Source of the DNA: an uncultured virus (IMG/VR IMGVR_UViG_2593339138_000002)
Lineage: Duplodnaviria > Heunggongvirae > Uroviricota > Caudoviricetes
Length of the DNA stretch: 59,559 nt
Direction: 5' to 3' (one strand)
Virus record (IMG/VR): IMGVR_UViG_2593339138_000002
Of the stretch, positions 19,260-42,310 are shown piece after piece (the stretch's first letter is position 1; every line of letters starts with the position of its first letter). The position numbers were made by a program, and so were the translations under genes. The notes below the pieces were generated by a model that was not told the DNA's origin, made no database searches, and worked only from the letters and a program-made list of their open reading frames with translations.

Positions 19260-19266
19260 TCCCTTT

Positions 19267-19284: not shown

Positions 19285-19354
19285 GTTTAATATGTTAGAA
19301 AGCACCATATAGGTGCTTTTTTTATACCCAAACCAAGAAATGGAGGAATTTATA

Positions 19355-20512: not shown

Positions 20513-20572
20513 ATCAAACAGCGGACAGGTGGAGGCTTGTCCGCTAAATTTACTCTGAAAGGCGGCGAGAGC

Positions 20573-20866: not shown

Positions 20867-20870
20867 CGGT

Positions 20871-22710: not shown

Positions 22711-22713
22711 TAC

Positions 22714-22740
22714 AGGCGAGCTTATTGCTCGCCTTTTTCT
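22714..22740 (+). terminator. Rho-independent terminator
   Basis: aggcgagc-ttatt-gctcgcct-ttttct. Confidence 0.7.
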
Positions 22741-22755
22741 GTAAAGGAGTATATC

Positions 22756-23022
22756 ATGAGACGATTTAACTTCAGACTGGATAACGGTACAGCACTTACA
22801 ATACAGCCTCCTACACTGAGAATGTATTATAAGGAGCTTCTGACAGCAAAGAACGATCCACAGCTGTTCAATGCTGTGGCTCATATCTGTGACAGGAACG
22901 ATGAAGGAATAACAGTTACCGAGGAATATGTAGTCGATAACTTTACTGTTGACGACCTCAGCCGCTTTATGAGAGAACTTCCCGAGTGGATCAACAGCGA
23001 AAGGAAGGCTGACCCAAACTGA
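22756..23022 (+). CDS. Tail assembly chaperone G
   Basis: Between major tail and TMP; ends in slippery CCCAAAC-TGA. Confidence 0.75.
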   Translation: MRRFNFRLDNGTALTIQPPTLRMYYKELLTAKNDPQLFNAVAHICDRNDEGITVTEEYVVDNFTVDDLSRFMRELPEWINSERKADPN

Positions 23023-23282
23023 CGGTACCTTATTCTCCGTGCAAAAGCGAGGATAAGGTGTATTATAAATGCGTGTCAAGCGACATGAAGGTAGTATCTG
23101 ACTATACACTGCTTGATTTTTCTCAGATAGACGGACTTGAAGTGTTCGATTATTACGGCTATCTTCATGACGCTGTTGTCTGGAATTGCAGCAGATCAGA
23201 AGCAGGGCGTGACTACCTTGAGGACGCATATATGCACAGCCGGACCGAGCCTGACAGAGCTGCGCTTAAAAATATCAAGTAA
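23019..23282 (+). CDS. Tail assembly chaperone T part (-1 frameshift extension)
   Basis: -1 frame open from 23019, in frame with ORF 23058-23282. Confidence 0.7.
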   Translation: MTVPYSPCKSEDKVYYKCVSSDMKVVSDYTLLDFSQIDGLEVFDYYGYLHDAVVWNCSRSEAGRDYLEDAYMHSRTEPDRAALKNIK

Positions 23283-23293
23283 GGAGGGAGAAA

Positions 23294-26200: not shown

Positions 26201-26530
26201 AACAGCCCAAGCGATGCAAGACTATATGGTGAAGGAAGATACGATATAGGTTATGCTCATCATGCAACCGGCGGCACCATAGGCATAGGACAGCAGGGTA
26301 TTGTCGCAGAGGCAGGTCCCGAGCTCCTTCAGGTAATGAACGGCGGTATCAAGATCACTCCGCTGAGCCGCACGGCAACGAACACCCCCGTCGGAGCAGG
26401 CAGTGGTACGACTATCAACAACTACAACAACACCGTCTACGCGACGGTGAGAGGCAAATACGACGTATACGGCATGGCTGAGGACATGGCAACAGCCGAG
26501 CGCCGTATCGAGCAGGGAAAAGGCAGGTGA
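23294..26530 (+). CDS. Tape measure protein (TP901-like core)
   Basis: 1078 aa, IKGLTVQIGADT start, AKEMGATTKFTA...YMALAGW. Confidence 0.93.
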   Translation: MASNKIKGLTVQIGADTLGLDTALKGIEQKTKKAADELKDVNKTIRITGESATLWDQKQKLLNTALDESKKKLGTLIEAQSQVKKQLADKTITGEQYRAFQREVEYAKSAVDKYEKELAEAKDKVGELGSASDAAAREVDDFGDETSEAAEKADKASKGGLTAVAVALGNFIYDAAKKATQEIVGFGKEIVSTGMTFESSMSSVEAISGATAEELEQLEEKAKEMGATTKFTAAESADAFGYMALAGWNVSDMLSGIDGVLELAASSNMDLAKASDIVTDYLTAFGLTAQDSSRFVDIMTYAMANSNTTTEMLGEAYKNCAATAASMGYSVEDTTAVLMTMANAGIKGGEAGTALNAIMTRLATDTKNCATELAEYGVNVYDAEGNMQSLSSILEGVSDHWETLTDQEQANLAKMLAGTNHYAALQTIMSGLSDTAEEAGMSFGDYTKALEECEGAATDMSHTMIDNLQGDMTILDSAVDGMKLSLADELNPALRDVVQYVTKQMPNIQKVMKPIAEGAGKLIKGITDNLPAVMAVIKQRALPVIEVLGGALKNAYEGAKWLVEKLPGVSGFVRDVKNVKLFSELTEDARALNDGIRKDIEKMRELRDTAREQTETDLAETYKTEALYEELKGLVDENGKVKKGYEDRVNYIIGELQQATGIEIQQVDGVIQKYDELQAKIEETIKKQRAQIFEKNYTEMYSEALVQNGQAASKIAEAQKTREENQAYIDDLNSRVKAMFQPGGKMYNSDITYDMVGEVSDGSIEKMKKWGIINDEEYVKAGRALNNVMNSSDSLARLYAEIRNNNHIIEQYEKAEEALANGNYSDAQGLFASIDNASVASFGKIEDNVDEAVEHYKEAVDDVGRKIEAVTDEKIKYGDTAIKAEITELVDKMKTDGLKGADMLATGIVDKLSAIDGFDTSALKEFMAQTGVDLGDILATTSFEQMSSSLRSAVTELLYSQNDLIYNTINSPSDARLYGEGRYDIGYAHHATGGTIGIGQQGIVAEAGPELLQVMNGGIKITPLSRTATNTPVGAGSGTTINNYNNTVYATVRGKYDVYGMAEDMATAERRIEQGKGR

Positions 26531-26534
26531 TAGC

Positions 26535-27272
26535 ATGAGCACATTTATTTTTAACGGCATCAGCTCCGACACTCTGGGACTGATAATCACAACTCCGATG
26601 ATCCGCCCTACATGGCAGCCCGAAAGGGATTTTACGGCTATACCGGGCAGACCTCAGCAGTCATCGCACGAAAAACAATGGTACCCCAATGCTGAGCTTA
26701 CAGCATACGCAGTGATCACAGATGCAAGCGCTGAGAAACTGCATGATATCTATGCCAAACTTCGCGGCTACGGAGTGCTGAGTATATCGACAGCACCAGA
26801 TGAGATACTCTACGCATTTGTACACCTGCCCGTCCCCGAGGCTAAGGCTCTGCTCATGGCGGAACTGCCTATTGTATTCGAGTGTGAGCCTTTTGCCTAC
26901 GCAGCGGCGGAAAAGGCTGTTGATATCACGGAGACAAATCCGTATAAGCGCGTAGACGTCGAGGGCACTGTATTCTGCGATCCCACGATAGAGTTCGTGC
27001 CGTCACAGGCAAGCACCGATATCAACTGCAACGGCAAGGTGATACAAGTCAAAACACCGCAGGAGATCATCGGAGCAGGCTATCCGGACACATACAGCAT
27101 AACGCTTGACTGTGACGCGCAGCTTGCATACTATACCCGTCCGAGCGGTGACAAGGTCGCCTGCACGGAGCTGACCAAGGGACCGTTTCCGCGGCTCCAT
27201 ATCGCGGACAACTACATCATCAACAGCGGCGTGCAGTCTGCCGAGATACGCTATAGGGAGAGGTGGTACTAA
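26535..27272 (+). CDS. Distal tail protein (Dit)
   Basis: MSTFIFNGISS, IPGR, FECEPFAY, ends RERWY; follows TMP. Confidence 0.8.
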   Translation: MSTFIFNGISSDTLGLIITTPMIRPTWQPERDFTAIPGRPQQSSHEKQWYPNAELTAYAVITDASAEKLHDIYAKLRGYGVLSISTAPDEILYAFVHLPVPEAKALLMAELPIVFECEPFAYAAAEKAVDITETNPYKRVDVEGTVFCDPTIEFVPSQASTDINCNGKVIQVKTPQEIIGAGYPDTYSITLDCDAQLAYYTRPSGDKVACTELTKGPFPRLHIADNYIINSGVQSAEIRYRERWY

Positions 27273-29537
27273 GTGAGCGAGATCAAAGAGCTGACAAGTA
27301 TACCGCCTATAGTTTTTAATTCACAGGGCGGAGAACTTATAGACTGGAGCGTCACGGGAGCCGCAGGCGGCGTCGGAAAGGAGACGGCAAACAGACTTGA
27401 CTATAAGCCTATAGCTCGTGGCTCGGGGCCCGGCGGCACATATACCGACGGCACCACCATTGCAGGTGTTGCAATGAACGCTGTCAGTATCCCCGACGGA
27501 GCACCTGCCGACGCCGACCATCAGCGCTGGTATATGCTCCGTGCAAATATCAACGAGGGCGGTAACTGGGTGGACGATTACAGAAGTCCCACCTATGCCA
27601 ACTGCAACTGGTATGCGAAGCTTACGGCAGGCACATACAAGCTCATTGCAGAGTGTGCAAATCCCTACGGCAAAACCGTCCGCGTGCCCAATCTTGACAG
27701 CATCTACCGCAACGACAGTGTATTGCCGGGGAACCATATCCCCAGATACGACCTTGTGGACAGCAGCGGAAATACACTCATAGAAGTAACTTGGGAGAAC
27801 TTCTTCGTAAGCGAAAATCAGCGGAGATGGACCCGAAAAGAGTCCGTATTCACCATAGCGGAGGAGACCAGTGTCGGCGTGTTCTCGAAGATGTTCCAGT
27901 ACGACAGCTCCTACGCTGTTGATAATATCACGCCCTATCTTGTATTCCGCTACATGATAGTGCCTGTGGACACACCGACATCGCAGTTCAGCGTCACCCT
28001 GCCCATATCGGGCAGTCCCGTTATCTCGGGCGAGAGCTGCTGGGAGCCGCACAAGGTAACGCTTGCGCTGACTATCAGCTCAGTGGGTGCAGGCGCAACA
28101 GATATCGAGATAGACATCGGACAGAAGCTGACAGCAGGTCAGACGATATCCCTTGCAAGCACTGGCAGAAGTATACCCACTTACTACGGCCGCAATACCA
28201 TCACCTGTGACAGTGAAGTGCAGCCTACAGTATACATCAAGTACACCGAGCAGGAGCTTGTGCCGATGTGGGCTGAGGAGCGCCCTGCGCAGGTGAGCAT
28301 ATATGACATACATGAACCTCAGAGCGGCTTTGACCACAACGGCATTGCTATCCTTATGCCGTCGGAAGTGACGTCAGAAAAAGAGGATAAAGGGCGCTGG
28401 GATATCACTCTCACGCACCCGATCGACCCATTCGGGAAATGGACATACATCGTAGGGCAGAACATCGTCAAGGTTAACAGTCAGCTTTTCCGCATAGATG
28501 AGACTGAGATAGTCGCAGAGGCAGACTCTGAGTATATCACAGCCCATGCATGGCATATCACCTACGATATGAGCGACTACTGGATAGAGGAGGCACAATT
28601 CACAGCCGTCGGCGGCGAGAACTACATCACGCAGCTGAACGCTCACCGTGTCAAGGACTTTCCAAATCAGCAGCACATGGTCGGAGAGTATACGTTTGAT
28701 ATCACATCCGACCTCGAGGGACAGATGGAATGCTCTATCACCGATCAGAGCATCATCGAGTCGATTTTCGGCGCCGATAACTCGCTCGTCACTCTCTACG
28801 GTGGCGAGGTATATCGAGACAATTTTCACATGAGCGTCAATCAGACACTTGAGGGAGCACCTGAAGGCAATGCGTTTACCTTGAGGTACGGCACCGACCT
28901 TACGAAGATATCCTTCAAGATAGATATGTCGGGCTGGGTCACGAACCTGATCGGCGTCGACAATTACGGTAACATGGTAGGCGTATGGTACGATACATCG
29001 GGCGACTGGATCGTACATCACCATAAGACAAAGCGCATCCATTTTACTTACTCGGACGAGGCAGCAGATGGCATCGAGCGTCTCTGGAAATCTGTATGGC
29101 CGTACTGGGATAGCGTAAGCACTCCGACGGTATCTATTGTCGTAGAGGTCGCCAATATCAAAGGTGACCCGAAGTACAAAGATTTCCTGAACTTGCAGAA
29201 CTATGACGTAGGCTACAAGGGGACGATCTATGTCGAGCACCTCGGCATAGACGTGGAAATGAAGATAGTCTCTATACGCAGGAATGAGCTGACAGGGGAA
29301 GCAATACAGATCACCCTCGGCAATACCAGACGCTCGCTGATACGGCAGACAGTCATGTCGCAGACCATAGTGTCCCCGAATTCTGTGGAGGGCAAGAACG
29401 TAGCCGCCATGCAGTCGATGCAGGCGGAGCTGTACAATACTCAGACTGCACTCATGAGTATGAGCATTGCGGGCATGGAAGCGTTCGACATAGCAGAACT
29501 TGAGCGCCGAACGATAAACGAACTGGAGGGAAAATAA
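27273..29537 (+). CDS. Tail spike/Tal with extra N-terminal domain
   Basis: C-terminal half has prophage tail endopeptidase pattern (FDHNGIAIL, HPID, QLFRI, YGGEVYRDNF, LRYGTDL). Confidence 0.75.
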   Translation: MSEIKELTSIPPIVFNSQGGELIDWSVTGAAGGVGKETANRLDYKPIARGSGPGGTYTDGTTIAGVAMNAVSIPDGAPADADHQRWYMLRANINEGGNWVDDYRSPTYANCNWYAKLTAGTYKLIAECANPYGKTVRVPNLDSIYRNDSVLPGNHIPRYDLVDSSGNTLIEVTWENFFVSENQRRWTRKESVFTIAEETSVGVFSKMFQYDSSYAVDNITPYLVFRYMIVPVDTPTSQFSVTLPISGSPVISGESCWEPHKVTLALTISSVGAGATDIEIDIGQKLTAGQTISLASTGRSIPTYYGRNTITCDSEVQPTVYIKYTEQELVPMWAEERPAQVSIYDIHEPQSGFDHNGIAILMPSEVTSEKEDKGRWDITLTHPIDPFGKWTYIVGQNIVKVNSQLFRIDETEIVAEADSEYITAHAWHITYDMSDYWIEEAQFTAVGGENYITQLNAHRVKDFPNQQHMVGEYTFDITSDLEGQMECSITDQSIIESIFGADNSLVTLYGGEVYRDNFHMSVNQTLEGAPEGNAFTLRYGTDLTKISFKIDMSGWVTNLIGVDNYGNMVGVWYDTSGDWIVHHHKTKRIHFTYSDEAADGIERLWKSVWPYWDSVSTPTVSIVVEVANIKGDPKYKDFLNLQNYDVGYKGTIYVEHLGIDVEMKIVSIRRNELTGEAIQITLGNTRRSLIRQTVMSQTIVSPNSVEGKNVAAMQSMQAELYNTQTALMSMSIAGMEAFDIAELERRTINELEGK

Positions 29538-30319
29538 TGAGTACTACATATACGCCGAACTACAACCTCGGCAAGCAGGAAGATCACGCCGACAAGTTTG
29601 ACATGAGTGTGATCACCGAGAATATGGACAAGCTTGACACAGCACTGTATGAGCAGGCAGAGGATATCGCAGAAGCCGATACCGCCGAAGCCGCCGACCG
29701 TGCCGCACTCGCTGAGCTTATCGACGGTGGAGCGAAAAACCGCCTGCCGATAACATCTGTTGATAGTCTCAAGCGGCTGAATACCTATGGTACATGGGAG
29801 AACAATGTCTACACTCACTCAAGCGGAGTCGTATTCACAGTCAACGATGATATGTCAATCACAGCAAACGGCACAGCTTCGGGAGCAAATGCAGTTTTCA
29901 TTCTTTCAATGCCGGGAGGCTTTTCGATTGAGGCAGGCAACTGGATCCTCTCGGGCTGCCCGTCAGGCGGCTCGGCAAGCACATACAACATCGCTATCGC
30001 GGGTACGACGTCCGACACAGGTACGACGGGAAGCTTTACCTCGTGTAGCAAGGTGCTCGTGAGGATCTACGTCATAAATGGCACAAGTATATCAAATGCG
30101 GTATTCCGTCCCATGGTCTGCTCGAAAGCAGCATGGGATATATCACAGGCTTATCAGCCCTACCGCCCGAGCTATGCTGAGCTCTACGCGATGGTGCAGG
30201 CGCTTCAGGGCGGCAGCAGTCTCAACAGCGTGCAGTCAACTGCACAGCTCACGGCACTCGACAAAACCGAAGAATTAACGACAATAGACGACAGCAGTTA
30301 TACAACGGAAAACAGTTGA
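29537..30319 (+). CDS. Tail fibre / receptor-binding-like protein
   Basis: TPNYNL...NMDKLD start, beta-rich GVVFTVNDDMSITANGT segment. Confidence 0.65.
   Translation: MSTTYTPNYNLGKQEDHADKFDMSVITENMDKLDTALYEQAEDIAEADTAEAADRAALAELIDGGAKNRLPITSVDSLKRLNTYGTWENNVYTHSSGVVFTVNDDMSITANGTASGANAVFILSMPGGFSIEAGNWILSGCPSGGSASTYNIAIAGTTSDTGTTGSFTSCSKVLVRIYVINGTSISNAVFRPMVCSKAAWDISQAYQPYRPSYAELYAMVQALQGGSSLNSVQSTAQLTALDKTEELTTIDDSSYTTENS
30229..30246. repeat. 18-bp palindrome copy 4 (in CDS)
   Basis: cgtgcagtcaactgcaca, read as VQSTAQ. Confidence 0.8.
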
Positions 30320-30361
30320 TTTTCACCTTTTTTCAGACTATAAGTGAGAGGAGGTGAAAAC

Positions 30362-30628
30362 ATGGACAGCAGTATTATAGTATCCATCATATCAGCAGCT
30401 GTGACAATTATTACAGTAATCATAAATACAAAGGCAAGTAACCGTGAACTGACACACAAGCTTGAAACACAGCAGGCTGTCACGGAGACTAAGATAGACA
30501 GCCTGACATCTGAGGTCAGGGAACACAACAACTTTGCAAGGCGTATGCCTGTCGTCGAGGAGCAAATCAAGGTCATCAATCACAGACTGGAGGATTTGGA
30601 ACGTGAAAATCAAAGAAAGAGTAGCTAA
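30362..30628 (+). CDS. Holin-like membrane protein
   Basis: N-terminal TM, V..HNN...R...VE pattern, lysis module. Confidence 0.65.
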   Translation: MDSSIIVSIISAAVTIITVIINTKASNRELTHKLETQQAVTETKIDSLTSEVREHNNFARRMPVVEEQIKVINHRLEDLERENQRKSS

Positions 30629-30791
30629 GCTTATAGACGTAAAGTCGATAGTTACGCTGACATTAACAGGAGTATTCGCCTTTATGAATGCCGCAGGTCT
30701 GGATGTTCCTGAGAACTTCAAGACGATATACATAATGATAATAGGCTTTTACTTCGGTACTCAGACAAACAAAATAAAGGAGGAAAAGTAA
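30603..30791 (+). CDS. Holin
   Basis: LIDVKSIVT...IIGFYFGTQ, two TMs, before endolysin. Confidence 0.75.
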   Translation: MKIKERVAKLIDVKSIVTLTLTGVFAFMNAAGLDVPENFKTIYIMIIGFYFGTQTNKIKEEK

Positions 30792-31345
30792 TGAATAGTC
30801 CATACGAAGGCAAATTCAAGGTATCGCAGCAGTATACCCTCGGAACTCATGACGGACTCGACCTTGTCGGTATCGACAGCAAAGAGATCCACAGCTGTGC
30901 TAATGCAGAGGTTATCCATGTAGGCTGGGAAAACGCAGCGAACCACAAGCAGGGCTTCGGCTACTATGTAGCTACGAAGGACGATGTTGCCGGCAAAGAC
31001 GGCGTGCAGAAGATACGCTACTACGGTCATCTTACTGAGAACAGTGCAAGAGTAAAGGTCGGCGACAAGGTCAAAATCACTGATGTGCTCGGAATTGAGG
31101 GACACACTGGCTATGTGATACCCGACGGTCCCGGTGGAGCTCATTGTCACTACGAGATCCGTTCCGCGTTCTATAAGGGGGCGAAGGTCTATGATGTCAG
31201 CGCAGAGTCAGGTATTCCCAACGTTAAGGATGGTATCTATGATGATGGCTATCGCCCGAAGCAGAGCACTGCTGAGAAGAAAACGATAGAGGTAATGCTT
31301 GAGTATGAAGGACATAAGTACAGCGGCCTTCTGGAAGAACTGTGA
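30791..31345 (+). CDS. M23-family peptidase endolysin
   Basis: HDGLD, YGHL, GHTG, HCHYE. Confidence 0.85.
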   Translation: MNSPYEGKFKVSQQYTLGTHDGLDLVGIDSKEIHSCANAEVIHVGWENAANHKQGFGYYVATKDDVAGKDGVQKIRYYGHLTENSARVKVGDKVKITDVLGIEGHTGYVIPDGPGGAHCHYEIRSAFYKGAKVYDVSAESGIPNVKDGIYDDGYRPKQSTAEKKTIEVMLEYEGHKYSGLLEEL

Positions 31346-31348
31346 GCC

Positions 31349-31377
31349 TTGACAGTCTGCACTCAGCATGGTATAAT
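31349..31377 (+). promoter_or_regulatory. Consensus sigma-A promoter
   Basis: TTGACA-17-TATAAT with extended TG. Confidence 0.7.
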
Positions 31378-31382
31378 ACATG

Positions 31383-31416
31383 AAGAAAGCCCTTCCTTTC
31401 GGGAGGGCTTTTCTTT
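31383..31416. terminator. Bidirectional terminator
   Basis: aagaaagcccttcc-tttc-gggagggcttttcttt. Confidence 0.75.
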
Positions 31417-31430
31417 ATAACTTTCTGGAT

Positions 31431-31550
31431 TTCGGCGGTCCTGACGGTGAGCTTTCGGCTTCGCTTCGCTATCTCAACCAGCGCTATGCAATGCCATACG
31501 GCGAAGTAAAGGGACTCCTTACTGACATCGGGACCGAGGAATATGCACAT
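31431..31550 (+). pseudogene. cotJC: Internal fragment of host cotJC / manganese catalase family gene
   Basis: Translates FGGPDGELSASLRYLNQRYAMPYGEVKGLLTDIGTEE(YAH), the CotJC GG.DGEL...LRYL.QR...LLTDIGTEE.AH segment; no start codon; stop two codons later. Confidence 0.88.
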
Positions 31551-31578
31551 CAATGATGTATATGATACCTGTGGAAAA

Positions 31579-33093
31579 TCAAATCAGCGAAATATCGAGA
31601 AAAAACGGAACAGGGTGCCACTTGTCGCGGACCTCTGTCTCGCGGTGATATGTGATATCCTTGATTACTGTGCGGAGCAGATTATTCTTTTCCTCTGCTG
31701 AGGCAGTAGGGTCCTCAAGTATAGCGATAGCATCGTGCAGTGCAATGATCTTCTGTCGGTAGTCTACCTCTGATACCTGATAGCTCTTAGCTGTCTCGAT
31801 TGCCTCTTGGAGCTCCTGCCGGCGCTGCGCGAGTGCAGCATTACGCTTGACGAATACCTCGCTGGTATAGATACCCTGCTCGAGAAATTCGTATAGTCTC
31901 TCTTGCTGAGTTTCAAGCGCATTGAGTTCCTTGCGTAGAGCTTCTGCGATAGCCTTGTGCGCGTCATGAGTGTTTTGAGTGCCTTCTGCAAGCTGCTCAG
32001 ATAGTTCTGCCACAAGCTGTCGGAGTGCTCTGATTACTTCCTCTTCTACCTCTCTGTACGTCGCTGAGCGATTACCACACCGCATCTGATAGGCGCAGTG
32101 CAGACGAGCCTCGCACTTCTTATGAGGCTGATATATCATAGGGCGACCGCAGGAACAGTGCATGATACCCGCAAAGGGATTTTTCAGTCCTGACTTAGCC
32201 TTTACTTTCGGAAGGCTTCCGAAACGGGCAAGAGAAGCGTTGAACGTCTCCTCCGAGATGATAGGCTCATGCTTGCCGTCGACGAGTATCCAGTCCTCTT
32301 TGTTAGCCTTAGGGCGTGATGATATCAGCTCGCCGCCCTCATAGTGCTTCACGGTCTTGCGACAGTTCCAGCGAATTTTTCCGATATATACGGGGTTGCG
32401 AAGCATATCTCTTATGCTTGCGTTATTCCATATCTCGGACTTCCTCGGCTTGATATGCAACTCATTGAGACGGTTCGCGATCGTGGTGGTTCCGAGCCCG
32501 TCTTTTGTCCAGAGCTCATACATCAGGCGCACGGTGTCAGCCTCTGAGTTCGGGACGAGAGTATAAGCTTTCCCGACCTTTACTTTATCATAACCGTAGG
32601 GAGCGACAGAGCCGATGAAGTTTCCCTCATTGACGGAGGCTATCCTGCCGCGCATCATGATCTCCTTGACGTATTCCAGATAGTCATTTCCGCGCATGAG
32701 CTCCATCTCGAAAAACTTACGGTCGAACTTGTCTCCGAGATCATACGTCTTCGGAGGCGTGACGATCAGTGTATCAGTATAGCGGAACGCTCTGATAATA
32801 GTGCCGCAGTCAGACAGGTCTCCACGGCTCAGTCGCTGCGGATCAACAACAAGAACTCCCTTTACCTCCTCGGTCTGAATACGGTCGAGGAGCTTTTTTA
32901 TTTCTGGGCGGTCTTGAATAGTCTCACCCGAGACTACCTCTCGGTAGATCATGTCCTCAGGGATAACTCCGCCGAGCTTGGCAGCTGCATAGTCCTGCAA
33001 TATCTTATAGTGCTTCGCCAGTACCTCCTCGACGGTCTCATGCTCGCCGTCGGCTCGGGACTTACGAAGATACATCAAGTATTTATCGGACAT
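31579..33093 (-). CDS. Large serine recombinase (integrase)
   Basis: YLRKS catalytic motif, RLSR, recombinase domain (PYGY, NPVYIG, HEPII), Zn ribbon, coiled coil; AAAGGAGG RBS. Confidence 0.95.
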   Translation of the reverse strand: MSDKYLMYLRKSRADGEHETVEEVLAKHYKILQDYAAAKLGGVIPEDMIYREVVSGETIQDRPEIKKLLDRIQTEEVKGVLVVDPQRLSRGDLSDCGTIIRAFRYTDTLIVTPPKTYDLGDKFDRKFFEMELMRGNDYLEYVKEIMMRGRIASVNEGNFIGSVAPYGYDKVKVGKAYTLVPNSEADTVRLMYELWTKDGLGTTTIANRLNELHIKPRKSEIWNNASIRDMLRNPVYIGKIRWNCRKTVKHYEGGELISSRPKANKEDWILVDGKHEPIISEETFNASLARFGSLPKVKAKSGLKNPFAGIMHCSCGRPMIYQPHKKCEARLHCAYQMRCGNRSATYREVEEEVIRALRQLVAELSEQLAEGTQNTHDAHKAIAEALRKELNALETQQERLYEFLEQGIYTSEVFVKRNAALAQRRQELQEAIETAKSYQVSEVDYRQKIIALHDAIAILEDPTASAEEKNNLLRTVIKDITYHRETEVRDKWHPVPFFLDISLI

Positions 33094-33163
33094 GCTTCCT
33101 CCTTTCTGCGGCCGACAAAGATGTCGGTTGCAAATATCCCCTGCACGGAGCAGGGGATTATTT

Positions 33164-33694
33164 TTAATAGAAAACAATCGTATCAATCATACTCATGACA
33201 ACATCGTTGTCAATCGAATGGAAAGAAATAGTGCCATGAAGAGAGTCGGTATAGAATTCAATTCGTTTATTGTCGCTGTTCCCATCAGCAGTAATTAGAT
33301 ATGCCTGTCCATTTTTCACAAACGAGTCCTCAACAAAATATCCTTCATAAGATGATTTTAATGCATCATCAGTCAAGGCATATTCTTTGAAGCTTTCCCA
33401 GTGTTCAGTAATTTCGGCTTGAGATAGTTTATCATAAGAGGGATCGTGATTTATAGAAAAATCAATAAAATGCATATCGTCTTCTGAGCCCCATATCCAT
33501 GAAGCCATTGTTAAATCACCATTGATATGATCGTTTTCTTGCCAGTTTGAATTTGTGCTGATTTTTAAATAATCACATTCCCATGATGCATCAAGAGTCT
33601 TGAAGTCAAGTTCTTTTTCTTTTTGTGGCTTTGAGGAGCAAGAGCAGCTAAATAGCATTAACAGAGATATAGGGATTGAGATAAGCTTTTTCAT
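33164..33694 (-). CDS. Lipoprotein (possible superinfection exclusion)
   Basis: Signal peptide with lipobox LFSC; AT-rich; between repressor and integrase. Confidence 0.7.
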   Translation of the reverse strand: MKKLISIPISLLMLFSCSCSSKPQKEKELDFKTLDASWECDYLKISTNSNWQENDHINGDLTMASWIWGSEDDMHFIDFSINHDPSYDKLSQAEITEHWESFKEYALTDDALKSSYEGYFVEDSFVKNGQAYLITADGNSDNKRIEFYTDSLHGTISFHSIDNDVVMSMIDTIVFY

Positions 33695-33704
33695 AATAGC
33701 CTCC

Positions 33705-34364
33705 TTACACAGACTTGATTATTTTCTTTACCACGCCCATGATCTTTATATCATCGAGCTTAGAGCCAGAGAAGACCATCGGCGGATAGCTCGGATTGAT
33801 AGACTCAAGCGTGAGCTTTTCCTCAGTCTGAAAAGCACGCTTCACAAAGCCGTCGTTTTCTCCACAGACCACCGCCACAACAATGTCGCCGTTCTCGAAG
33901 TAGTCCTGCTTATGGACAACGACGAGGTCGTCCTCCTCTATCTTCGGATACATCGAGTCACCCTTGACAGCGATAGCCAGAGTCTCCTCAGCTTCCCGCT
34001 GACTTTCAAGATATAAAGGCTCATAGCCGCAGATCTGATCGTCCGCGTATGCTCCAAAGCCTGCGGATACAGTTTTGAAAATCGGTATCATGTATATATT
34101 ATCTTTATCAAGAATATTAAAACCTCTATACTGAGGTTCAGAAGTCAGTGAAAGGTTCGCGTCATCGTCCCAGCCCATAAGAGAAGAAGGAGAAGTATCA
34201 AGTGCCTTGGCGATTGCTACGATCATTGATTGAGAAGCGTCACGTTCCCCTGACTCGATTTTTGCAATGGTTGATCTTGATTTATATCCGGCTGCCTGAG
34301 CAAGCTCATCTTGTGTCATGCCTTTGTCTGTTCTTAATTTATTAACTCTTTCACCAAAAGTCAT
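33705..34364 (-). CDS. CI-like repressor (HTH + S24)
   Basis: HTH, SAG, GDSMYP, VKR. Confidence 0.93.
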   Translation of the reverse strand: MTFGERVNKLRTDKGMTQDELAQAAGYKSRSTIAKIESGERDASQSMIVAIAKALDTSPSSLMGWDDDANLSLTSEPQYRGFNILDKDNIYMIPIFKTVSAGFGAYADDQICGYEPLYLESQREAEETLAIAVKGDSMYPKIEEDDLVVVHKQDYFENGDIVVAVVCGENDGFVKRAFQTEEKLTLESINPSYPPMVFSGSKLDDIKIMGVVKKIIKSV

Positions 34365-34406
34365 GTATCTCACCTCCTATTTATATTATAATCATTATAG
34401 CATATT

Positions 34407-34568
34407 GTTGTCGAAGTGTCAACAAAAATTGTCGTTGAAGTGTGACACAATGTCAACAAAAATATCAGTACGGATTTGTGCAAAAAATAGAAAGAAAAAT
34501 AATATGCAAAATTCTGTTGACAAATTGCCAACACAATGATATACTGTAGATGTTGGCAAAGAGTCAAC
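34407..34568. promoter_or_regulatory. Switch region: operators GTTGAC-N5-GTCAAC and promoter TTGACA(34517)-17-TATACT(34540)
   Basis: Imperfect 17-bp palindromes at 34407, 34441, 34516, 34552 and 34800. Confidence 0.78.
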
Positions 34569-34592
34569 AATCATTACTGTGGAGGTGAGAAA

Positions 34593-34808
34593 ATGACTGA
34601 CACTCAACTTCTAATGTCTTGCATAAAAAACTGCAAGCTGAACGTAAAAAGCGTTGCAGCACAGCTAAATCTCACAAGACAGGGGTTTTGGAAGAAGATA
34701 ACAGGTCGTTCGGAGTTCAAACAGTCGGAAATCGGAAAACTTACAAGGCTTTTAAAACTTGATGTCGATACCCAGTATAAAATTTTTTTTGCGAATGCTG
34801 TTGACTGA
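34593..34808 (+). CDS. Cro-like protein
   Basis: HTH, SEFKQSEI...IFF; divergent from repressor. Confidence 0.85.
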   Translation: MTDTQLLMSCIKNCKLNVKSVAAQLNLTRQGFWKKITGRSEFKQSEIGKLTRLLKLDVDTQYKIFFANAVD

Positions 34809-34871
34809 TAGTCACGCACAGCCATCAGCTAAGGACAAAAATGTCCCTACCACCCGAGAAAGGAGGATATA

Positions 34872-35066
34872 ATGGACAAAATACATATTCACTGTGATAC
34901 TATTGCGCAGTTCAAAGCTTTAAGGGAAATACAGCGCTCTTTTCTACCGGAGGGAGTAAAGTCGTTACAACTTATTCCTGATGGGATAAGGCTCACCGAT
35001 CAGACAGGAGCGACAGCAGATTTTATTTATTTTCCCGGAAGCGATATGGTGGTATTTTCACAGTAA
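34872..35066 (+). CDS. Hypothetical protein
   Basis: AAGGAGG RBS, directly after cro. Confidence 0.65.
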   Translation: MDKIHIHCDTIAQFKALREIQRSFLPEGVKSLQLIPDGIRLTDQTGATADFIYFPGSDMVVFSQ

Positions 35067-35130
35067 AGAAAAAGAGCTGGAGGCAACTGTACAACCCGTA
35101 AGCACATAAGCATAGGAATGAGGTGATAGT

Positions 35131-35361
35131 ATGAGAAAAGACGATATCAGGAACTGGACAGAGACCGAGACCGAAAAGGAGCGCACGGTCAGCTACGATA
35201 CAGACCGCGCTCATATAACTGTACATATCCCGAAGCACACTTCCGAGGAGCAGGCAGTCTTTGAGAAAAACGTCCGTGCAGCTCTGCGTCGCTTTTATCA
35301 TCACATCACCGTTGAAAAAGGCTGTGACTGGGACGAGCTCGTCGCCAAGTACAGCAACTGA
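35131..35361 (+). CDS. Hypothetical protein
   Basis: GAGGTG RBS. Confidence 0.6.
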   Translation: MRKDDIRNWTETETEKERTVSYDTDRAHITVHIPKHTSEEQAVFEKNVRAALRRFYHHITVEKGCDWDELVAKYSN

Positions 35362-35363
35362 CT

Positions 35364-35381
35364 TGTGCAGTCAACTGCACG
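35364..35381. repeat. 18-bp palindrome copy 5
   Basis: tgtgcagtcaactgcacg then ggaaaaccgataaggag. Confidence 0.85.
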
Positions 35382-35406
35382 GGAAAACCGATAAGGAGGA
35401 AAATAC

Positions 35407-35988
35407 ATGAAAAAGCTTACCGATGCCGAGAAGAAGGAGATCATCAAGAACATTCTCGGCGCAGCAGACCGAAAGAAGCAGCTCGGAATTGAAGCCGACC
35501 TGCACTGTATCTCCAAGGGCGATGTGAAGGATATCCTCAAGGCTGACGGTGTCGACCTGAGAATATTCTGCGGAGGTCGCCACGACAAGAAACGCATTGA
35601 GGACGAGCTTATCAAGGAGCAGGCACAGGAGCCTGTGGACGAGCCCACCGCCACGGAGCAGGGAGAGACCGACGAGGAACTCGCTCAGCAGTGGGCTGAT
35701 CTGGCGATACCGCCCTATGAAGAAAATATTTGTGAACCTAAAGAAAAAATCTGCGAACCCGAAGAAAATCACACCCTCGCAGACGTTCAGGACATACCGC
35801 GCAAGCCTTACACCAACGAAATTCCTAAGGCGGTAATTGCTGCTGTAGAAGATAAGATTACAGAACTTCAATATATGATCGAGCAGAATAAGGAACAAGA
35901 AAAAAGCCTTTTACAGCACAACGAGAAGTTTAACGCTCGTATTGATATTTTGAATGCATGGCTAAAAGAGGTAAAAAACAGAAAGTGA
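35407..35988 (+). CDS. Hypothetical protein
   Basis: AAGGAGG RBS, acidic linker and coiled coil. Confidence 0.65.
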   Translation: MKKLTDAEKKEIIKNILGAADRKKQLGIEADLHCISKGDVKDILKADGVDLRIFCGGRHDKKRIEDELIKEQAQEPVDEPTATEQGETDEELAQQWADLAIPPYEENICEPKEKICEPEENHTLADVQDIPRKPYTNEIPKAVIAAVEDKITELQYMIEQNKEQEKSLLQHNEKFNARIDILNAWLKEVKNRK

Positions 35989-36000
35989 GGGGATTGAGGT

Positions 36001-36240
36001 ATGAGAACAGATGAAGAGATTTTTGACGAGAAGCGCCGGTTTGTCACGGACAAGCTCACACCTTTCCTCGCGGCGATAGATCAGGACATAGAGTCCGCGG
36101 AGTATCACGTTATCACTCATACTCCCTACGATCTGGAATATATCATCATCACATGGAAAGGCGGGAGCAGCAAGAGAGCATACGTCACCGGTGACAGCCT
36201 TGTCGCCCTCGCAAAGGACGTTCTGAAGGTGATATCATGA
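36001..36240 (+). CDS. Hypothetical protein
   Basis: RBS, operon packing. Confidence 0.6.
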   Translation: MRTDEEIFDEKRRFVTDKLTPFLAAIDQDIESAEYHVITHTPYDLEYIIITWKGGSSKRAYVTGDSLVALAKDVLKVIS

Positions 36241-36527
36241 TAAGATACAAGATAAGAGACGTCGCCTATGAGTGCGACGAGACACAGGGAACAGCTACGG
36301 TCAAGGCTCCGAGTGGTGACATTGCCTTCAGCAACGCCATCGAGGGCTGGAACTACTTCACAGGTCTGGCGTTCTTCCCGCTGGAACTTGACCTGCGGAA
36401 TAAGCTCCAAGAGAACGGCTTCAACCGCTGGACAGGCACTCGCAAGGTTGACTATACCGAGAGCGAGCTGAAGATGATAGACAATGCCGACGAGGCAGCA
36501 CGAAAGAGAGAGCTGTACAAGTTCTGA
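36237..36527 (+). CDS. Hypothetical protein
   Basis: ATGA overlap with upstream gene. Confidence 0.6.
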   Translation: MIRYKIRDVAYECDETQGTATVKAPSGDIAFSNAIEGWNYFTGLAFFPLELDLRNKLQENGFNRWTGTRKVDYTESELKMIDNADEAARKRELYKF

Positions 36528-36537
36528 GGAGGGCGGT

Positions 36538-36792
36538 ATGGGCAAGAAAATAGATTTCGACACCGCCTTGAAGCTCGGAGGCATTACTCCGAACGATACA
36601 ATTTATGCCAAGCCGAACAGCTACGGCTACAAGCTGAACGTCAATCACCCGCAGATCTTGCCGCTCTACGAGCGATATAAGAAAAAGCTCGGAGAGAAGA
36701 TCCTGTCAGATACTCAGAGGCTCACCTTTGAGACGATGATCTTCAAGGCTTTACAGAAAAAGAAAGAAAAAGAGGTAGAACAATGCGACTGA
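36538..36792 (+). CDS. Conserved hypothetical (homolog of 9366-9608)
   Basis: Protein similarity to prophage 1 ORF. Confidence 0.75.
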   Translation: MGKKIDFDTALKLGGITPNDTIYAKPNSYGYKLNVNHPQILPLYERYKKKLGEKILSDTQRLTFETMIFKALQKKKEKEVEQCD

Positions 36793-37055
36793 TAGCATAT
36801 ATCCTGATAGCGATAGCATTTATCGCTATCATAGGAGTGCCGATAGAGTTCCTTGCCGAGCACATTCGGAAGGGGAGCGCATACCGTGCGGCACGGAAGG
36901 AGATCAAAACGAACATCAGAGTCTGGGAAAGTATCGCAAAGAGTTGTGATCCGATCACAGATGCATACGATAAGGGCTATGCAATAGCCAGACTTGTGAT
37001 ATATCATCACGAACTGGACGAGCTGACAGCCCGAAAAGAGTACTTGTGCAGTTGA
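36783..37055 (+). CDS. Hypothetical membrane protein
   Basis: N-terminal TM. Confidence 0.55.
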   Translation: MRLIAYILIAIAFIAIIGVPIEFLAEHIRKGSAYRAARKEIKTNIRVWESIAKSCDPITDAYDKGYAIARLVIYHHELDELTARKEYLCS

Positions 37056-37062
37056 CTGCACA
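37045..37062. repeat. 18-bp palindrome copy 6 (TG core)
   Basis: tgtgcagttgactgcaca then gaaaaccgataaggag. Confidence 0.85.
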
Positions 37063-37084
37063 GAAAACCGATAAGGAGAAAACT

Positions 37085-37447
37085 ATGGATAGAGAGAAAT
37101 ATTTCGGTGAGAAAATCGAAGGACGGAAGGAACAGGCTATCGCGTCAGCCGTAAGGGAAGCCCTTGAAAGCTTCTGCGATCAGGAGCCCGAGTTCGAGCA
37201 GGCTATCGAGCAGAGCGGAAAGACCTTCCAGGAGTGCCTCAAGGAGGTAGTGAACGGCTGTGGAAGCTGCCTGTCCGACATCGAAGCATACCGCCGCGCC
37301 GTGAAGTTTTACTTCTCGACCGCGACGGTGAGTTTTAAAATGACTATTGACCTCAGCGGCGACAACGGTGCTGTGAAGCCCATCACCATGACAGAGAACA
37401 AGAAGGACACGCTGAGCATATCCCTCGACGATCTCCTCGATTTTTAA
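37085..37447 (+). CDS. PcfK-like protein
   Basis: FCDQEPEF...KTFQECL...SDIEAY..AVKFYF, acidic ISLDDLLDF tail; upstream of PcfJ. Confidence 0.6.
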   Translation: MDREKYFGEKIEGRKEQAIASAVREALESFCDQEPEFEQAIEQSGKTFQECLKEVVNGCGSCLSDIEAYRRAVKFYFSTATVSFKMTIDLSGDNGAVKPITMTENKKDTLSISLDDLLDF

Positions 37448-37462
37448 GATTGGAGCAAAAAA

Positions 37463-37729
37463 ATGAAAAGAGGAATAACTGTAGAATTCGACTATTCAGA
37501 CGACGGCTACTGGGTAGAGAAAAAGCGAGGCTCACTTACAATTGAGGAAATAGCGCAGGCAATAAACGAGTATCACGGAGAAGACAGATACTTCTTTATG
37601 ATCGACACAAACGCACCAGAGGGCTGGTACGATAACTATAATCTCAATGGCGACTATGAGCCGAAGGGTGACTGTGTCAAGGTTTACAGCTTCGATGCTA
37701 TGAAAAGGCTGACAGGAGCCAGTAAGTGA
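37463..37729 (+). CDS. Hypothetical protein
   Basis: Inserted between PcfK-like and PcfJ genes. Confidence 0.6.
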   Translation: MKRGITVEFDYSDDGYWVEKKRGSLTIEEIAQAINEYHGEDRYFFMIDTNAPEGWYDNYNLNGDYEPKGDCVKVYSFDAMKRLTGASK

Positions 37730-37741
37730 GGAGGCGAGAGT

Positions 37742-39361: not shown

Positions 39362-39379
39362 TAAGATAAGGAGGAAACT

Positions 39380-42306: not shown

Positions 42307-42310
42307 TGAC

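What the first reader, a model, noticed from the sequence alone, without database searches (positions are those of the whole stretch)
31420..31578. A spore-coat gene (cotJC/Mn-catalase) apparently split into three pieces by two different prophages
Seen: the only non-phage DNA between the prophage 1 lysis terminator and the prophage 2 integrase translates on + as FGGPDGELSASLRYLNQRYAMPYGEVKGLLTDIGTEE(YAH), an internal CotJC segment lacking both ends, with homology stopping abruptly on each side. Known: serine-recombinase elements interrupt sporulation genes and are excised to restore them (skin in sigK, SPbeta in spsM). Inference: two prophages sit at two attB sites about 110-120 bp apart in one gene, leaving a DNA 'micro-exon'. 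Restoring the gene would need two coordinated excisions, effectively an AND gate. A gene-restoring attP duplication would carry a gene end, not an internal piece.
Basis: partly seen in the sequence, partly recalled or inferred. Interest (0 to 1): 0.88.

Follow-up and report, generated by a model that had tools for sequence, protein, structure and literature searches.

The report
cotJC cut twice by two prophages
In a rumen Ruminococcus genome the spore-coat gene cotJC is cut into three in-frame pieces by two different, complete-looking prophages, so the gene can only be rebuilt if both are cut out; the arrangement is real and recurs in related species.

Summary
Confirmed. The only host DNA between the two prophages is a 108-bp internal piece of cotJC (window 31434-31541). 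The 5' piece (31 codons, behind cotJA-cotJB) lies 33.3 kb to the left, beside a second large serine recombinase. The 3' piece lies 35.4 kb to the right. Removing both elements at their core repeats (GGCGGTC; GAGGAA) gives a 180-aa frame, 91.6% identical without gaps to an intact orthologue. Free-phage attP junctions of both phages occur in viral contigs and in a bovine-gut metagenome. They carry no cotJC piece, so the "phage-borne fragment" rival is refuted. An independent metagenome contig bridges both junctions.

The pattern recurs: 7 of 37 genomes of the genus have cotJC cut twice, using at least four recombinase sites in the first 66 codons. Three more species and seven viral contigs show the same micro-exon.

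Whether excision is tied to sporulation is untested; I give it about 0.4. No directionality factor or sporulation-type promoter was found.

cotJC is already listed in print as a target, and this scan noted another twice-cut cotJC elsewhere. This is a new variant of a known kind.

The parts
1..31433 (+). Prophage 1, the part inside the window. The whole element is C7 53447-86755, 33,316 bp core to core. Its left 1.9 kb, with Int1 at C7 53469-54935 on the - strand, lies just left of the window.
   Evidence: Pfam finds an S24 repressor, RecT/PDDEXK/SSB/replication O, TerS, TerL, portal, S78 protease, capsid, tape measure, tail and an M23 lysin. Its ends are fixed by free-phage attP contigs L055 and L056, whose Int1 is 100% and 99% identical.
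31349..31377 (+). Perfect sigma-70-type promoter (TTGACA, 17 nt, TATAAT, with TG) at the right end of prophage 1. It points toward the terminator, attR1 and the micro-exon.
   Evidence: It matches 12 of 12 consensus positions. The same promoter is kept in free-phage contigs L055 and L056. Its function is unknown.
31391..31407 (+). Intrinsic terminator after the prophage 1 lysis genes.
31409..31440 (+). attR1: the phage P arm with the 14-bp inverted-repeat arm TATAACTTTCTGGA, plus the 7-bp core GGCGGTC (31434-31440).
   Evidence: The same core lies at attL1 (C7 53440-53446). The arm's reverse complement lies beside Int1. Free attP in L055 and L056 equals the attR1 left half plus the attL1 right half. 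The attP1 junction is also seen in metagenome run X2, record 4.
31434..31541 (+). The cotJC micro-exon: codons about 30-66 (GGPDGEL...TDIGTEE), the only host DNA between the two prophages.
   Evidence: PF05067 positions 29-71, E 1.3e-10. It is 89.7% identical to an intact orthologue. A 109-bp unitig covers exactly 31432-31540 in run X5, and an independent 4,316-bp contig in run X6 bridges it.
31536..31565 (+). attL2: the 6-bp core GAGGAA (31536-31541) plus the phage P' arm (TGCACATCAATGATG...).
   Evidence: The same core lies at attR2 (C7 122297-122302), where the arm is an inverted repeat. Free attP in L045 (Int2 97%) equals the attR2 left half plus the attL2 right half. The attP2 junction is seen in run X2, record 6.
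31579..33186 (-). Int2, the large serine recombinase of prophage 2. The ORF as listed is 535 aa. The likely start is the ATG that opens MSDKYLMY, 31 codons further in.
   Evidence: Resolvase, Recombinase and Zn_ribbon_recom domains. It aligns full-length with SPbeta SprA/YokA, PDB 9dxh, E 2.7e-43.
33705..34373 (-). Prophage 2 CI/LexA-type repressor (HTH_3 plus Peptidase_S24).
   Evidence: It is 32% identical to the prophage 1 repressor at 786..1427 on the - strand.
31542..59559 (+). Prophage 2, the part inside the window. The whole element is C7 86864-122296, 35,439 bp core to core. It runs 7.4 kb past the window's right end.
   Evidence: Pfam finds Int2, an S24 repressor, PcfJ-like, a replication protein, VRR-NUC, TerS, TerL, portal, ClpP protease, capsid, connectors and tape measure. 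Beyond the window it finds tail, holin and a GH25 lysin. C7 114882-116065 is masked.
26260..30252 (+). Tail module of prophage 1 that is repeated in prophage 2 (C7 114636-118622).
   Evidence: Identity is 94.3% over 246 bp and 96.4% over 2,557 bp, in direct orientation. Elsewhere the two phages share only two weak stretches of 64-71%.

Best explanation
Two different temperate tailed phages have integrated independently into one chromosomal gene, cotJC, the last gene of a cotJA-cotJB-cotJC operon. Each has its own large serine recombinase (LSR). The two attB sites lie about 100 bp apart.

Phage 1 (33.3 kb, Int1) recombined at the core GGCGGTC in codons 30-32. Phage 2 (35.4 kb, Int2, a SprA homologue) recombined at GAGGAA in codons 64-65. 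The chromosome therefore carries cotJC as 31 codons, a 95-108-bp micro-exon, and a 3' part (shown).

Each element is bounded by its own attL/attR pair with inverted-repeat phage arms. The two recombinases and their sites are unrelated. Each excision should therefore be independent and precise, and full-length CotJC (180 aa) can only form in a chromosome from which both have been removed (inferred from the sequence). This is the only Mn-catalase gene found in this genome.

Both phages look active: their gene sets look complete, they carry SOS-type S24 repressors, and free attP forms occur in the field.

Inferred, not shown: by analogy with SPbeta/spsM and skin/sigK, both elements may be excised in the sporulating mother cell, restoring cotJC there while the spore keeps both prophages. 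I put that at about 0.4. Otherwise cotJC is simply off in this double lysogen and serves as a low-cost landing site.
For: Three pieces:
- The pieces are collinear with no missing or duplicated codons.
- cotJA and cotJB lie directly upstream.
- The in-silico double excision gives a 180-aa frame, 91.6% identical over 178 aa without gaps to the intact CotJC of G012.

att sites:
- The att arms are inverted repeats and the cores are duplicated at both ends of each element.
- Free attP1 is in L055 and L056 and free attP2 in L045. Each equals the predicted join and holds no cotJC DNA beyond the core.
- In run X2, contigs show the attP1 junction, the attP2 junction, and an unoccupied attB2. In run X6, from a different study, one contig bridges attR1, the micro-exon, attL2 and int2 at about 97% identity.

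Recombinases:
- Int1 and Int2 are 22% identical.
- Each has the LSR domain set.
- Orthologues of each sit at the same site in other species. Int1-like genes (43-61%) sit at site 1 in G009, G034, G049, G002 and G044. Int2-like genes (55-78%) sit at site 2 in G005, G014, G017 and G034.
- 18 of 26 Int2-like loci in species genomes abut cotJC at site 2.
- L137 (Int2 96%) has cotJC codons 1-68 uninterrupted, so phage 2 integrates without phage 1.

For programmed excision (indirect only):
- Int2 is a full-length SprA homologue.
- Relatives hold reduced, non-phage elements at these sites with open recombinase frames and unbroken cotJC pieces. These are about 3.2 kb in G044, about 5.6 kb in G009, and about 1.5 kb in L150, which holds a 419-aa recombinase frame and room for little else.
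- No cotJC piece examined in 20 relatives' loci carries an internal stop or frameshift.
- The genome has SpoIVA, Spo0A and full-length sporulation-type sigma genes.
Against: Against the structure, nothing found. The 4-kb tail module shared by the two phages could in principle mislead an assembler. However, the free-phage contigs pair each integrase with the right end that this assembly gives it.

Against programmed excision:
- No directionality factor was recognised among 47 small or unassigned ORFs in PHROGs, and none in the Pfam scan of 86 ORFs.
- Four small ORFs gave no match to the SprB (YotN) part of the solved SprA-SprB fusion.
- Sporulation-type promoter patterns, using Bacillus subtilis consensus recalled from memory, are not enriched in the two prophages. 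The sigma-K-like pattern scored 2 against 4.3 expected, and the sigma-E-like pattern scored 0.
- Both phages have ordinary S24 repressors.
- The source isolate's contigs show only the integrated form (run X1).
- Recalled, not tested: cotJ mutants of B. subtilis make apparently normal spores, and Ruminococcus flavefaciens-group bacteria are not described as spore formers. The gene may therefore be dispensable.
Confidence: 0.9

Rival explanations
1. Developmental two-input switch. Both prophages are excised by their own recombinase and directionality factor specifically in the mother cell during sporulation. CotJC is then made only where both excisions succeed. The forespore keeps both prophages.
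For: - The architecture gives the full frame only after both excisions.
- Int2 is a full-length homologue of SprA, which does exactly this for spsM (PMC4191935 and PMC5499854, abstracts seen in the listing).
- Reduced elements that keep an open recombinase frame sit at the same sites in relatives, including one of about 1.5 kb with room for little beyond its recombinase frame.
- The cotJC pieces are unbroken in all relatives examined.
- A sigma-K-like motif lies upstream of cotJA at L005 5768-5795 (consensus recalled).
- Core sporulation genes are present.
Against: - No directionality factor and no sporulation-type promoter were found in either prophage.
- There are no read-level data from sporulating cells.
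- Only the integrated form is seen in the isolate's contigs.
- Unbroken pieces can also reflect recent insertion.
Confidence: 0.4
2. Plain insertional inactivation. cotJC is a dispensable, vegetatively silent gene used as a safe landing pad by many LSR phages. In this double lysogen it is simply off, and it is restored only if both phages are lost by induction or curing.
For: - At least four LSR sites fall in the first 66 codons, and 7 of 37 genomes of the genus are cut twice. This fits heavy, tolerated traffic.
- Both phages have ordinary SOS-type repressors and occur as free forms.
- No sporulation control elements were found.
- The direct 4-kb repeat between the phages could delete the micro-exon for good. 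That hazard sits uneasily with strong selection on the gene.
Against: - Open recombinase frames persist in tiny non-phage remnants, and cotJC pieces stay unbroken across many species.
- This is the only Mn-catalase gene in the genome.
- Published summaries describe excision during sporulation for elements interrupting sporulation genes (PMC5595907, abstract in the listing; PMC6957869, passages).
Confidence: 0.5
3. The internal piece is phage-borne: a cotJC fragment carried in an attP region or picked up by aberrant excision. On this view there would be one insertion, not two.
For: Many viral contigs with Int1-like genes show the micro-exon next to the integrase.
Against: - The free attP junctions of phage 1 (L055, L056; X2 record 4) and of phage 2 (L045; X2 record 6) contain only the 6-7-bp cores.
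- The three pieces tile the gene with no overlap beyond the cores.
- In 4 of the 7 viral contigs with only the micro-exon (L103, L108, L111, L112) the junction sequence is shared, and in L103 and L108 a further serine recombinase gene follows. The other three (L075, L101, L118) continue into non-cotJC DNA with no recombinase gene recognised. All seven fit prophage calls that ran across a micro-exon.
Confidence: 0.02
4. Assembly artefact. The two prophages were mis-joined through their shared tail module or at the short micro-exon.
For: A repeat of about 4 kb at 94-96% identity lies inside both prophages. The genome is a 28-contig draft.
Against: - One 19.5-kb contig of the source run spans the whole laid stretch.
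- An independent metagenome contig (X6 record 19, 4,316 bp) bridges 31316-32800.
- Free-phage contigs pair int1 with the M23-lysin end and int2 with the attR2 arm, as assembled.
- G034, L140, L146 and L150 show the same micro-exon in other species.
Confidence: 0.03

Closest known systems
SPbeta prophage in spsM of Bacillus subtilis (SprA integrase, SprB directionality factor)
   Same: A complete, inducible prophage sits inside the coding region of a spore-envelope gene, and precise LSR excision rebuilds the frame. Int2 aligns full-length with SprA/YokA (PDB 9dxh, E 2.7e-43).
   Different: Here two unrelated prophages sit in the same gene. No SprB-like gene and no sporulation-type promoter were found. 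Excision in sporulation is untested. The host is a rumen Ruminococcus.
skin element in sigK (SpoIVCA), gin in gerE, and other sporulation gene-intervening elements (PMC5595907, PMC6957869, PMC5025042)
   Same: An LSR-bounded element splits a sporulation gene. Relatives of this locus hold reduced elements of 1.5-6 kb at the same cotJC sites, as skin and gin are reduced.
   Different: The two elements here are full phages. One gene carries two of them, leaving a 95-108-bp internal exon.
Previously listed cotJC interruptions
   Same: The target gene is the same, and so is the kind of element. Two sources list cotJC: Abe et al. 2013, as cited in bioRxiv 10.1101/2021.11.22.469490 (passage read), and the skin-like element in cotJC of Laceyella sacchari in bioRxiv 10.1101/2022.02.25.481979 (passage read).
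   Different: The passages I read name cotJC only as a target. They describe no double interruption, no att sites and no experiments on cotJC. I could not read Abe 2013 itself, nor Table S3 of the 2022 preprint.
Multiply interrupted nif genes of heterocystous cyanobacteria (Calothrix sp. NIES-4101, PMC11249958; survey PMC4874684)
   Same: Genes needed only in a terminally differentiated cell are cut by several recombinase elements and need several rearrangements to be restored (abstracts seen in the listing).
   Different: The phylum and cell type differ. Those elements are mostly not intact phages, and there restoration has been shown experimentally.
   Same: cotJC lies in three pieces, each cut made by its own LSR (unchecked AI note).
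   Different: That middle piece is about 325 bp and one element is not a phage. Here both are complete-looking phages and the middle piece is 95-108 bp.

Membership tests
CotJC / Mn-catalase family (Pfam PF05067) in a cotJ operon | Match to the family profile over its conserved core | tested here: met
   The three pieces cover model positions 1-31, 29-71 and 61-189. Each is over the cut-off, at 27.9, 41.9 and 93.7 bits. The joined frame is 180 aa, 91.6% identical to an intact orthologue.
CotJC / Mn-catalase family (Pfam PF05067) in a cotJ operon | Operon context cotJA-cotJB-cotJC | tested here: met
   CotJA (PF11007, E 7e-20) and CotJB (PF12652, E 5.5e-31) lie directly upstream of piece 1.
CotJC / Mn-catalase family (Pfam PF05067) in a cotJ operon | Spore-coat location and mother-cell expression | not testable with these tools
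   This is known for B. subtilis only (recalled). A sigma-K-like motif upstream of cotJA is a weak hint.
Large serine recombinase (phage integrase type) | N-terminal resolvase catalytic domain with the serine motif, a recombinase domain and a zinc-ribbon domain | tested here: met
   Int1 scores Resolvase 2.6e-27 and Recombinase 2.5e-24. Int2 scores Resolvase 3.7e-11 and Recombinase 7.6e-23. In both, Zn_ribbon_recom falls just under the cut-off, at 21.6 and 21.5 against 25.3 bits. The motifs YIRVS and YLRKS are visible in the translations.
Large serine recombinase (phage integrase type) | Short attP with inverted-repeat arms around a small core shared with attB, and no long direct repeats | tested here: met
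   The arms are 14 bp (site 1) and about 17 bp (site 2). The cores are 7 and 6 bp.
Large serine recombinase (phage integrase type) | Catalytic activity on these sites | not testable with these tools
   It is supported indirectly: attP, attB, attL and attR forms of the same sites all exist in nature.
Sporulation gene-intervening element with developmentally regulated excision (skin / SPbeta type) | Inserted inside the coding region of a sporulation gene, with a recombinase gene at the junction | tested here: met
Sporulation gene-intervening element with developmentally regulated excision (skin / SPbeta type) | Precise excision restores an intact frame | tested here: met
   Shown in silico only.
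Sporulation gene-intervening element with developmentally regulated excision (skin / SPbeta type) | A directionality factor or recombinase under a sporulation sigma factor | tested here: inconclusive
   None was recognised. The searches are insensitive: directionality factors are small and diverse, and the promoter consensus is from Bacillus and recalled.
Sporulation gene-intervening element with developmentally regulated excision (skin / SPbeta type) | Excision observed in sporulating (mother) cells | not testable with these tools
   Only contigs of the isolate's run were available, and they show the integrated form.

The most novel reading that the evidence does not exclude
In rumen Ruminococcus, cotJC is a multi-lane landing pad for orthogonal serine recombinases, with at least four sites in 66 codons. 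It also works as a natural multi-input developmental switch. Every resident element, here two full prophages, must be excised in the mother cell for the coat catalase to be made. Spore-coat completion would thus report, and depend on, the orderly excision of all of them. Reduced relatives that keep an open recombinase frame would be domesticated versions of the same switch.
Probability: 0.3. Interest if true: 0.8.

Novelty: new variant of a known kind. Interest (0 to 1): 0.6.

Why it matters
1. This is a natural case of one small gene gated by two unrelated, precisely defined serine-recombinase systems. The att sites are about 100 bp apart. attP, attB, attL and attR can all be read from data in hand. 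That makes the "is it an AND gate?" question directly testable by PCR in a cultured isolate. It also offers two orthogonal integrase/att pairs.

2. cotJC in Ruminococcus is a hotspot. At least four recombinase sites are used, often two at once, in either orientation. The orientation flip is accounted for by an inverted attP core.

3. Split cotJC is easily called missing or a pseudogene. That distorts predictions of sporulation capacity in gut and rumen Clostridia.

4. The 4-kb repeat shared by the two phages could delete the micro-exon by homologous recombination. Double lysogeny may therefore be one route to irreversible loss of the gene.

Tried and rejected
- Directionality factor: PHROGs on 47 small or unassigned ORFs of both prophages gave no excisionase or directionality factor. 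Pfam on 86 ORFs gave none either.
- SprB: four small ORFs of prophage 2 searched against solved structures did not hit the SprB (YotN) part of the SprA-SprB fusion entry. I tested 4 ORFs chosen by position, not all of them.
- Sporulation promoters: regex scans for sigma-E and sigma-K consensus (recalled) over C7 53300-122700 gave 0 and 2 hits, against 0.2 and 4.3 in 100 block shuffles. Both hits lie inside structural genes.
- Idea that LSR sites sit on the most conserved DNA: mixed result. Among 10 intact orthologues, the 41-bp window at site 0 ranks 1 of 494, site 2 ranks 38 and site 1 ranks 326. An earlier run that included two distant paralogues was discarded as misaligned.
- Reads: only assembled contigs were served, so levels of excision cannot be measured. 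The isolate's run shows only the integrated form, which proves nothing about rare forms.
- Literature: one search with min_terms 2 was too loose to be useful. Searches for cotJC with prophage (19 papers) and with "intervening element" (1 paper) found no description of a doubly interrupted cotJC. In PMC5595907 and PMC6957869 I found no passage on two elements in one sporulation gene.
- Named phages: the nearest deposited integrases are only 41% (Roseburia phage Jekyll) and 54% (bajarodcaudo virus 3) identical. I did not check where those phages integrate.
- I did not run complex prediction, structure prediction or the large protein searches, because no claim here rests on them.

Full report
**Observation**

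The window is G000:C7:55323-114881. A whole-genome search with Pfam Mn_catalase (PF05067) finds three matches on contig C7. All are on the + strand and in gene order:
- C7 53353-53445, model positions 1-31, E 2.9e-6.
- C7 86753-86878 (window 31431-31556), model positions 29-71, E 1.3e-10.
- C7 122285-122632, model positions 61-189, E 1.4e-26.

A fourth, sub-threshold hit (E 0.31) is unrelated. The genome, 99.7% complete, has no other Mn-catalase gene. Piece 1 follows intact cotJA and cotJB.

**Junctions**

I aligned the three pieces to the intact cotJC of a congener (G012, locus L013). Homology to the gene ends at short sequences that are duplicated at the two ends of each insert:
- GGCGGTC at C7 53440-53446 and at C7 86756-86762 (window 31434-31440).
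- GAGGAA at window 31536-31541 and at C7 122297-122302.

Beside each core the inserted DNA carries inverted-repeat arms, 14 bp perfect at site 1 and about 17 bp at site 2. This is the anatomy of large serine recombinase (LSR) att sites.

Joining the pieces at the cores in a script gives a 180-aa frame. It is 91.6% identical over 178 aa, without gaps, to the intact orthologue. With only the left insert removed the frame is 69 aa. With neither removed it is 37 aa. The host DNA between the inserts is 95 bp, or 108 bp with both cores.

**The two inserts**

The left insert is 33,316 bp and the right one 35,439 bp, core to core.

Both encode the following:
- an LSR at the left end on the - strand (Int1, 488 aa, just left of the window; Int2, 535 aa, window 31579..33186);
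- an HTH plus Peptidase_S24 repressor;
- replication or recombination genes;
- small and large terminase, portal, prohead protease and capsid;
- head-tail connectors, tape measure, tail proteins and lysis genes.

Int1 and Int2 are 22% identical. The repressors are 32% identical.

The two elements are otherwise unrelated, except for a tail module of about 4 kb at 94-96% identity in direct orientation. Part of that module in prophage 2 (C7 114882-116065) is masked and could not be read.

Int2 aligns over its full length with SPbeta SprA/YokA (PDB 9dxh, E 2.7e-43). The nearest deposited phage integrases are only 41% and 54% identical.

**Is the middle piece phage-borne, or an assembly error?**

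No to both.
- Viral contigs L055 and L056 (Int1 100% and 99% identical) run from the 3' end of int1 straight into the lysis end of prophage 1, across a single GGCGGTC. That is the free attP1.
- L045 (Int2 97%) has the predicted attP2.
- Neither attP holds cotJC DNA beyond the core.
- In bovine-gut metagenome run X2, one contig ends in the attP1 join. A 7,162-bp contig carries the attP2 join. A third runs from the micro-exon into the 3' part of cotJC, which is an unoccupied attB2.
- In run X6, from another study, a 4,316-bp contig at about 97% identity bridges 31316-32800. That stretch covers attR1, the micro-exon, attL2 and int2.
- The source run has one contig across the whole laid stretch.
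- The free-phage contigs pair each integrase with the right end that this assembly gives it. This rules out a swap through the shared tail module.

**Recurrence**

I searched 61 genomes: G000, 36 congeners and 24 others of the order. Of these, 45 have a PF05067 match and many show fragments. I fetched 20 regions and aligned them.

Sites and their recombinases:
- Int1-like recombinases (43-61% identical) sit at site 1 in G009, G034, G049, G002 and G044.
- Int2-like ones (55-78%) sit at site 2 in G005, G014, G017 and G034.
- A third LSR clade (36-39% identical to Int2) uses a site at codons 3-5. I call this site 0. It is used in G017, G009, G023, G028, G002 and G008.
- A fourth cut falls after codon 61/62 in G028 and G002. 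I call this site 2a.

Seven of the 37 genomes of the genus (G000 included) have cotJC cut twice:
- G000 and G034 at sites 1 and 2;
- G017 and G023 at sites 0 and 2;
- G009 at sites 0 and 1;
- G002 and G028 at sites 0 and 2a.

For G009 and G028 the 5' stub lies on another contig. There the site-0 call rests on the point where homology begins and on the conserved phage arm.

Wider surveys:
- 18 of 26 Int2-like loci from species-representative genomes abut cotJC at site 2. Three of the 26 are the same contigs as G014, G017 and G005.
- Nine of these show codons 1-65/68 uninterrupted. One is L137, whose Int2 is 96% identical: phage 2 without phage 1.
- Three (L140, L146, L150) show the micro-exon alone.
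- 24 of 89 viral-contig loci hold a cotJC fragment beside the integrase. Seven of them hold only the micro-exon followed by non-cotJC DNA.
- Four of those seven (L103, L108, L111, L112) share one junction sequence. L103 and L108, where enough DNA was held to look, continue into another serine recombinase gene. In the other three (L075, L101, L118) no recombinase gene was recognised beyond the micro-exon.

Both orientations of the site-2 phages occur. The attP of L046 (Int 79% identical) has the central core inverted between unchanged symmetric arms, which accounts for this.

Record titles place these hosts in rumen and gut Ruminococcus (flavefaciens group) and Oscillospiraceae.

**Mechanism**

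Shown:
- There are two independent LSR integrations at two attB sites in one gene.
- The two systems are unrelated.
- The full frame needs both excisions.
- Both phages exist as free attP forms in the field.

Inferred: what the cell does with this arrangement.

In favour of excision during sporulation:
- The SPbeta/spsM and skin/sigK precedents (abstracts in the listing; passages of PMC6957869).
- Int2's homology to SprA.
- Reduced, non-phage elements at these sites with open recombinase frames. They are about 3.2 kb in G044, about 5.6 kb in G009, and about 1.5 kb in L150, which holds a 419-aa recombinase frame and room for little else. A recombinase that only serves a dead element should decay unless excision is useful to the host.
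- No stop or frameshift in any cotJC piece of the relatives' loci examined.
- Core sporulation genes in G000: SpoIVA at 710 bits against a cut-off of 459.9, two Spo0A hits over the cut-off, and two full-length sigma-K/E-like genes.
- A sigma-K-like motif upstream of cotJA (consensus recalled).

Against:
- No directionality factor was recognised.
- No enrichment of sporulation-type promoter patterns in the prophages.
- Both phages have ordinary SOS-type repressors.
- There are no data from sporulating cells.
- From memory, cotJ is dispensable for gross spore properties in B. subtilis, and this group of ruminococci is not known to sporulate in culture.

I put programmed double excision at about 0.4 and plain tolerated inactivation at about 0.5.

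**What is known**

- cotJC is named as a frequent integration target, citing Abe et al. 2013, in bioRxiv 10.1101/2021.11.22.469490 (passage read).
- A skin-like element in cotJC of Laceyella sacchari is mentioned in bioRxiv 10.1101/2022.02.25.481979 (passage read). Its Table S3 could not be seen.
- I could not read Abe 2013 itself.
- My searches found no description of one sporulation gene cut by two elements.
- Multi-element restoration is known for cyanobacterial nif genes (PMC11249958, abstract in the listing).
- This scan has already noted cotJC splits in at least eight other genomes, one of them cut twice (e1-3629541, unchecked).

**Verdict**

The observation and the structural reading are confirmed and strengthened. 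The locus is a new variant of the known class of sporulation gene-intervening elements: two complete prophages in one gene, with a 95-108-bp micro-exon between them. It recurs within a hotspot of at least four sites. The functional "AND gate" remains an open, directly testable hypothesis.

Noticed in passing
window 31349-31377 (+), with 31380-31556: A perfect sigma-70 promoter (12 of 12 positions, with TG) sits 4 nt after the prophage 1 endolysin stop. It points at the terminator (31391-31407), attR1 and the micro-exon, and it is kept in free-phage contigs L055 and L056. The ATG at 31380 opens a frame that runs in frame into the cotJC micro-exon. In a lysogen carrying phage 1 alone, that frame would continue through the rest of cotJC. 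Whether the promoter makes a small RNA, acts across attP antisense to int1, or drives a truncated CotJC is unknown.
   Followed up: partly
window 26260-30252 and C7 114636-118622 (L006 about 637-4622): The two otherwise unrelated prophages share a tail and host-recognition module of about 4 kb at 94-96% identity, in direct orientation. Homologous recombination between the copies would delete about 33 kb, including the micro-exon. It would leave a hybrid prophage flanked by mismatched attL1 and attR2, so cotJC would be lost for good.
   Followed up: partly
L046 (viral contig), about 4001-4120, compared with L045: Related site-2 phages keep the same symmetric attP arms but carry the central core in the opposite sense (TATTCCTC against GAGGAATA). 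This matches the opposite prophage orientation seen in G014 and G017. It is a natural example of orientation being set by the core alone.
   Followed up: partly
L150 1266-2782 (uncultured Ruminococcus MAG): The site-2 element here is only about 1.5 kb, with an open 419-aa recombinase frame as its only long ORF. That is about 115 residues shorter than Int2. It sits between a micro-exon and the 3' part of cotJC, and an Int1-like gene lies on the other side of the micro-exon. It may be a domesticated excision cassette. Which part of the recombinase is missing was not worked out.
   Followed up: partly
L029 1899-5080 (G044) and L028 3455-9128 (G009): These are small site-1 elements of about 3.2 kb and 5.6 kb. 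The G044 element has an intact Int1-like gene, a 366-aa secreted-looking cargo gene and a 122-aa ORF overlapping the int start on the other strand. I did not look inside the G009 element.
   Followed up: no
codons 3-5 of cotJC in G017, G009, G023, G028, G002, G008 (L022, L028, L038, L035, L032, L036): A third LSR clade (36-39% identical to Int2) inserts right after the start of cotJC, leaving a 5' stub of 3-4 codons. The phage arm (ATGTACAACATGGATA...) is conserved across these genomes. Elements at this site range from about 6 kb (G023) to about 52 kb (G002).
   Followed up: partly
window 2995-5827: Prophage 1 carries a PAPS-reductase-like gene next to a C-5 cytosine DNA methylase. This may be a DNA-modification or anti-restriction pair.
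   Followed up: no
window 31386-31420: A 35-bp copy of the terminator stretch, with 3 differences, lies on another 34.9-kb contig of the source run and in run X5. It may be the lysis-end terminator of a further related prophage.
   Followed up: no
3' end of cotJC, C7 about 122620-122650: G000's CotJC ends about 24 residues earlier (…RFGEPFRSW) than that of most congeners. Similar short ends occur in G014, G008 and viral locus L065, so this looks like a lineage variant and not decay.
   Followed up: partly
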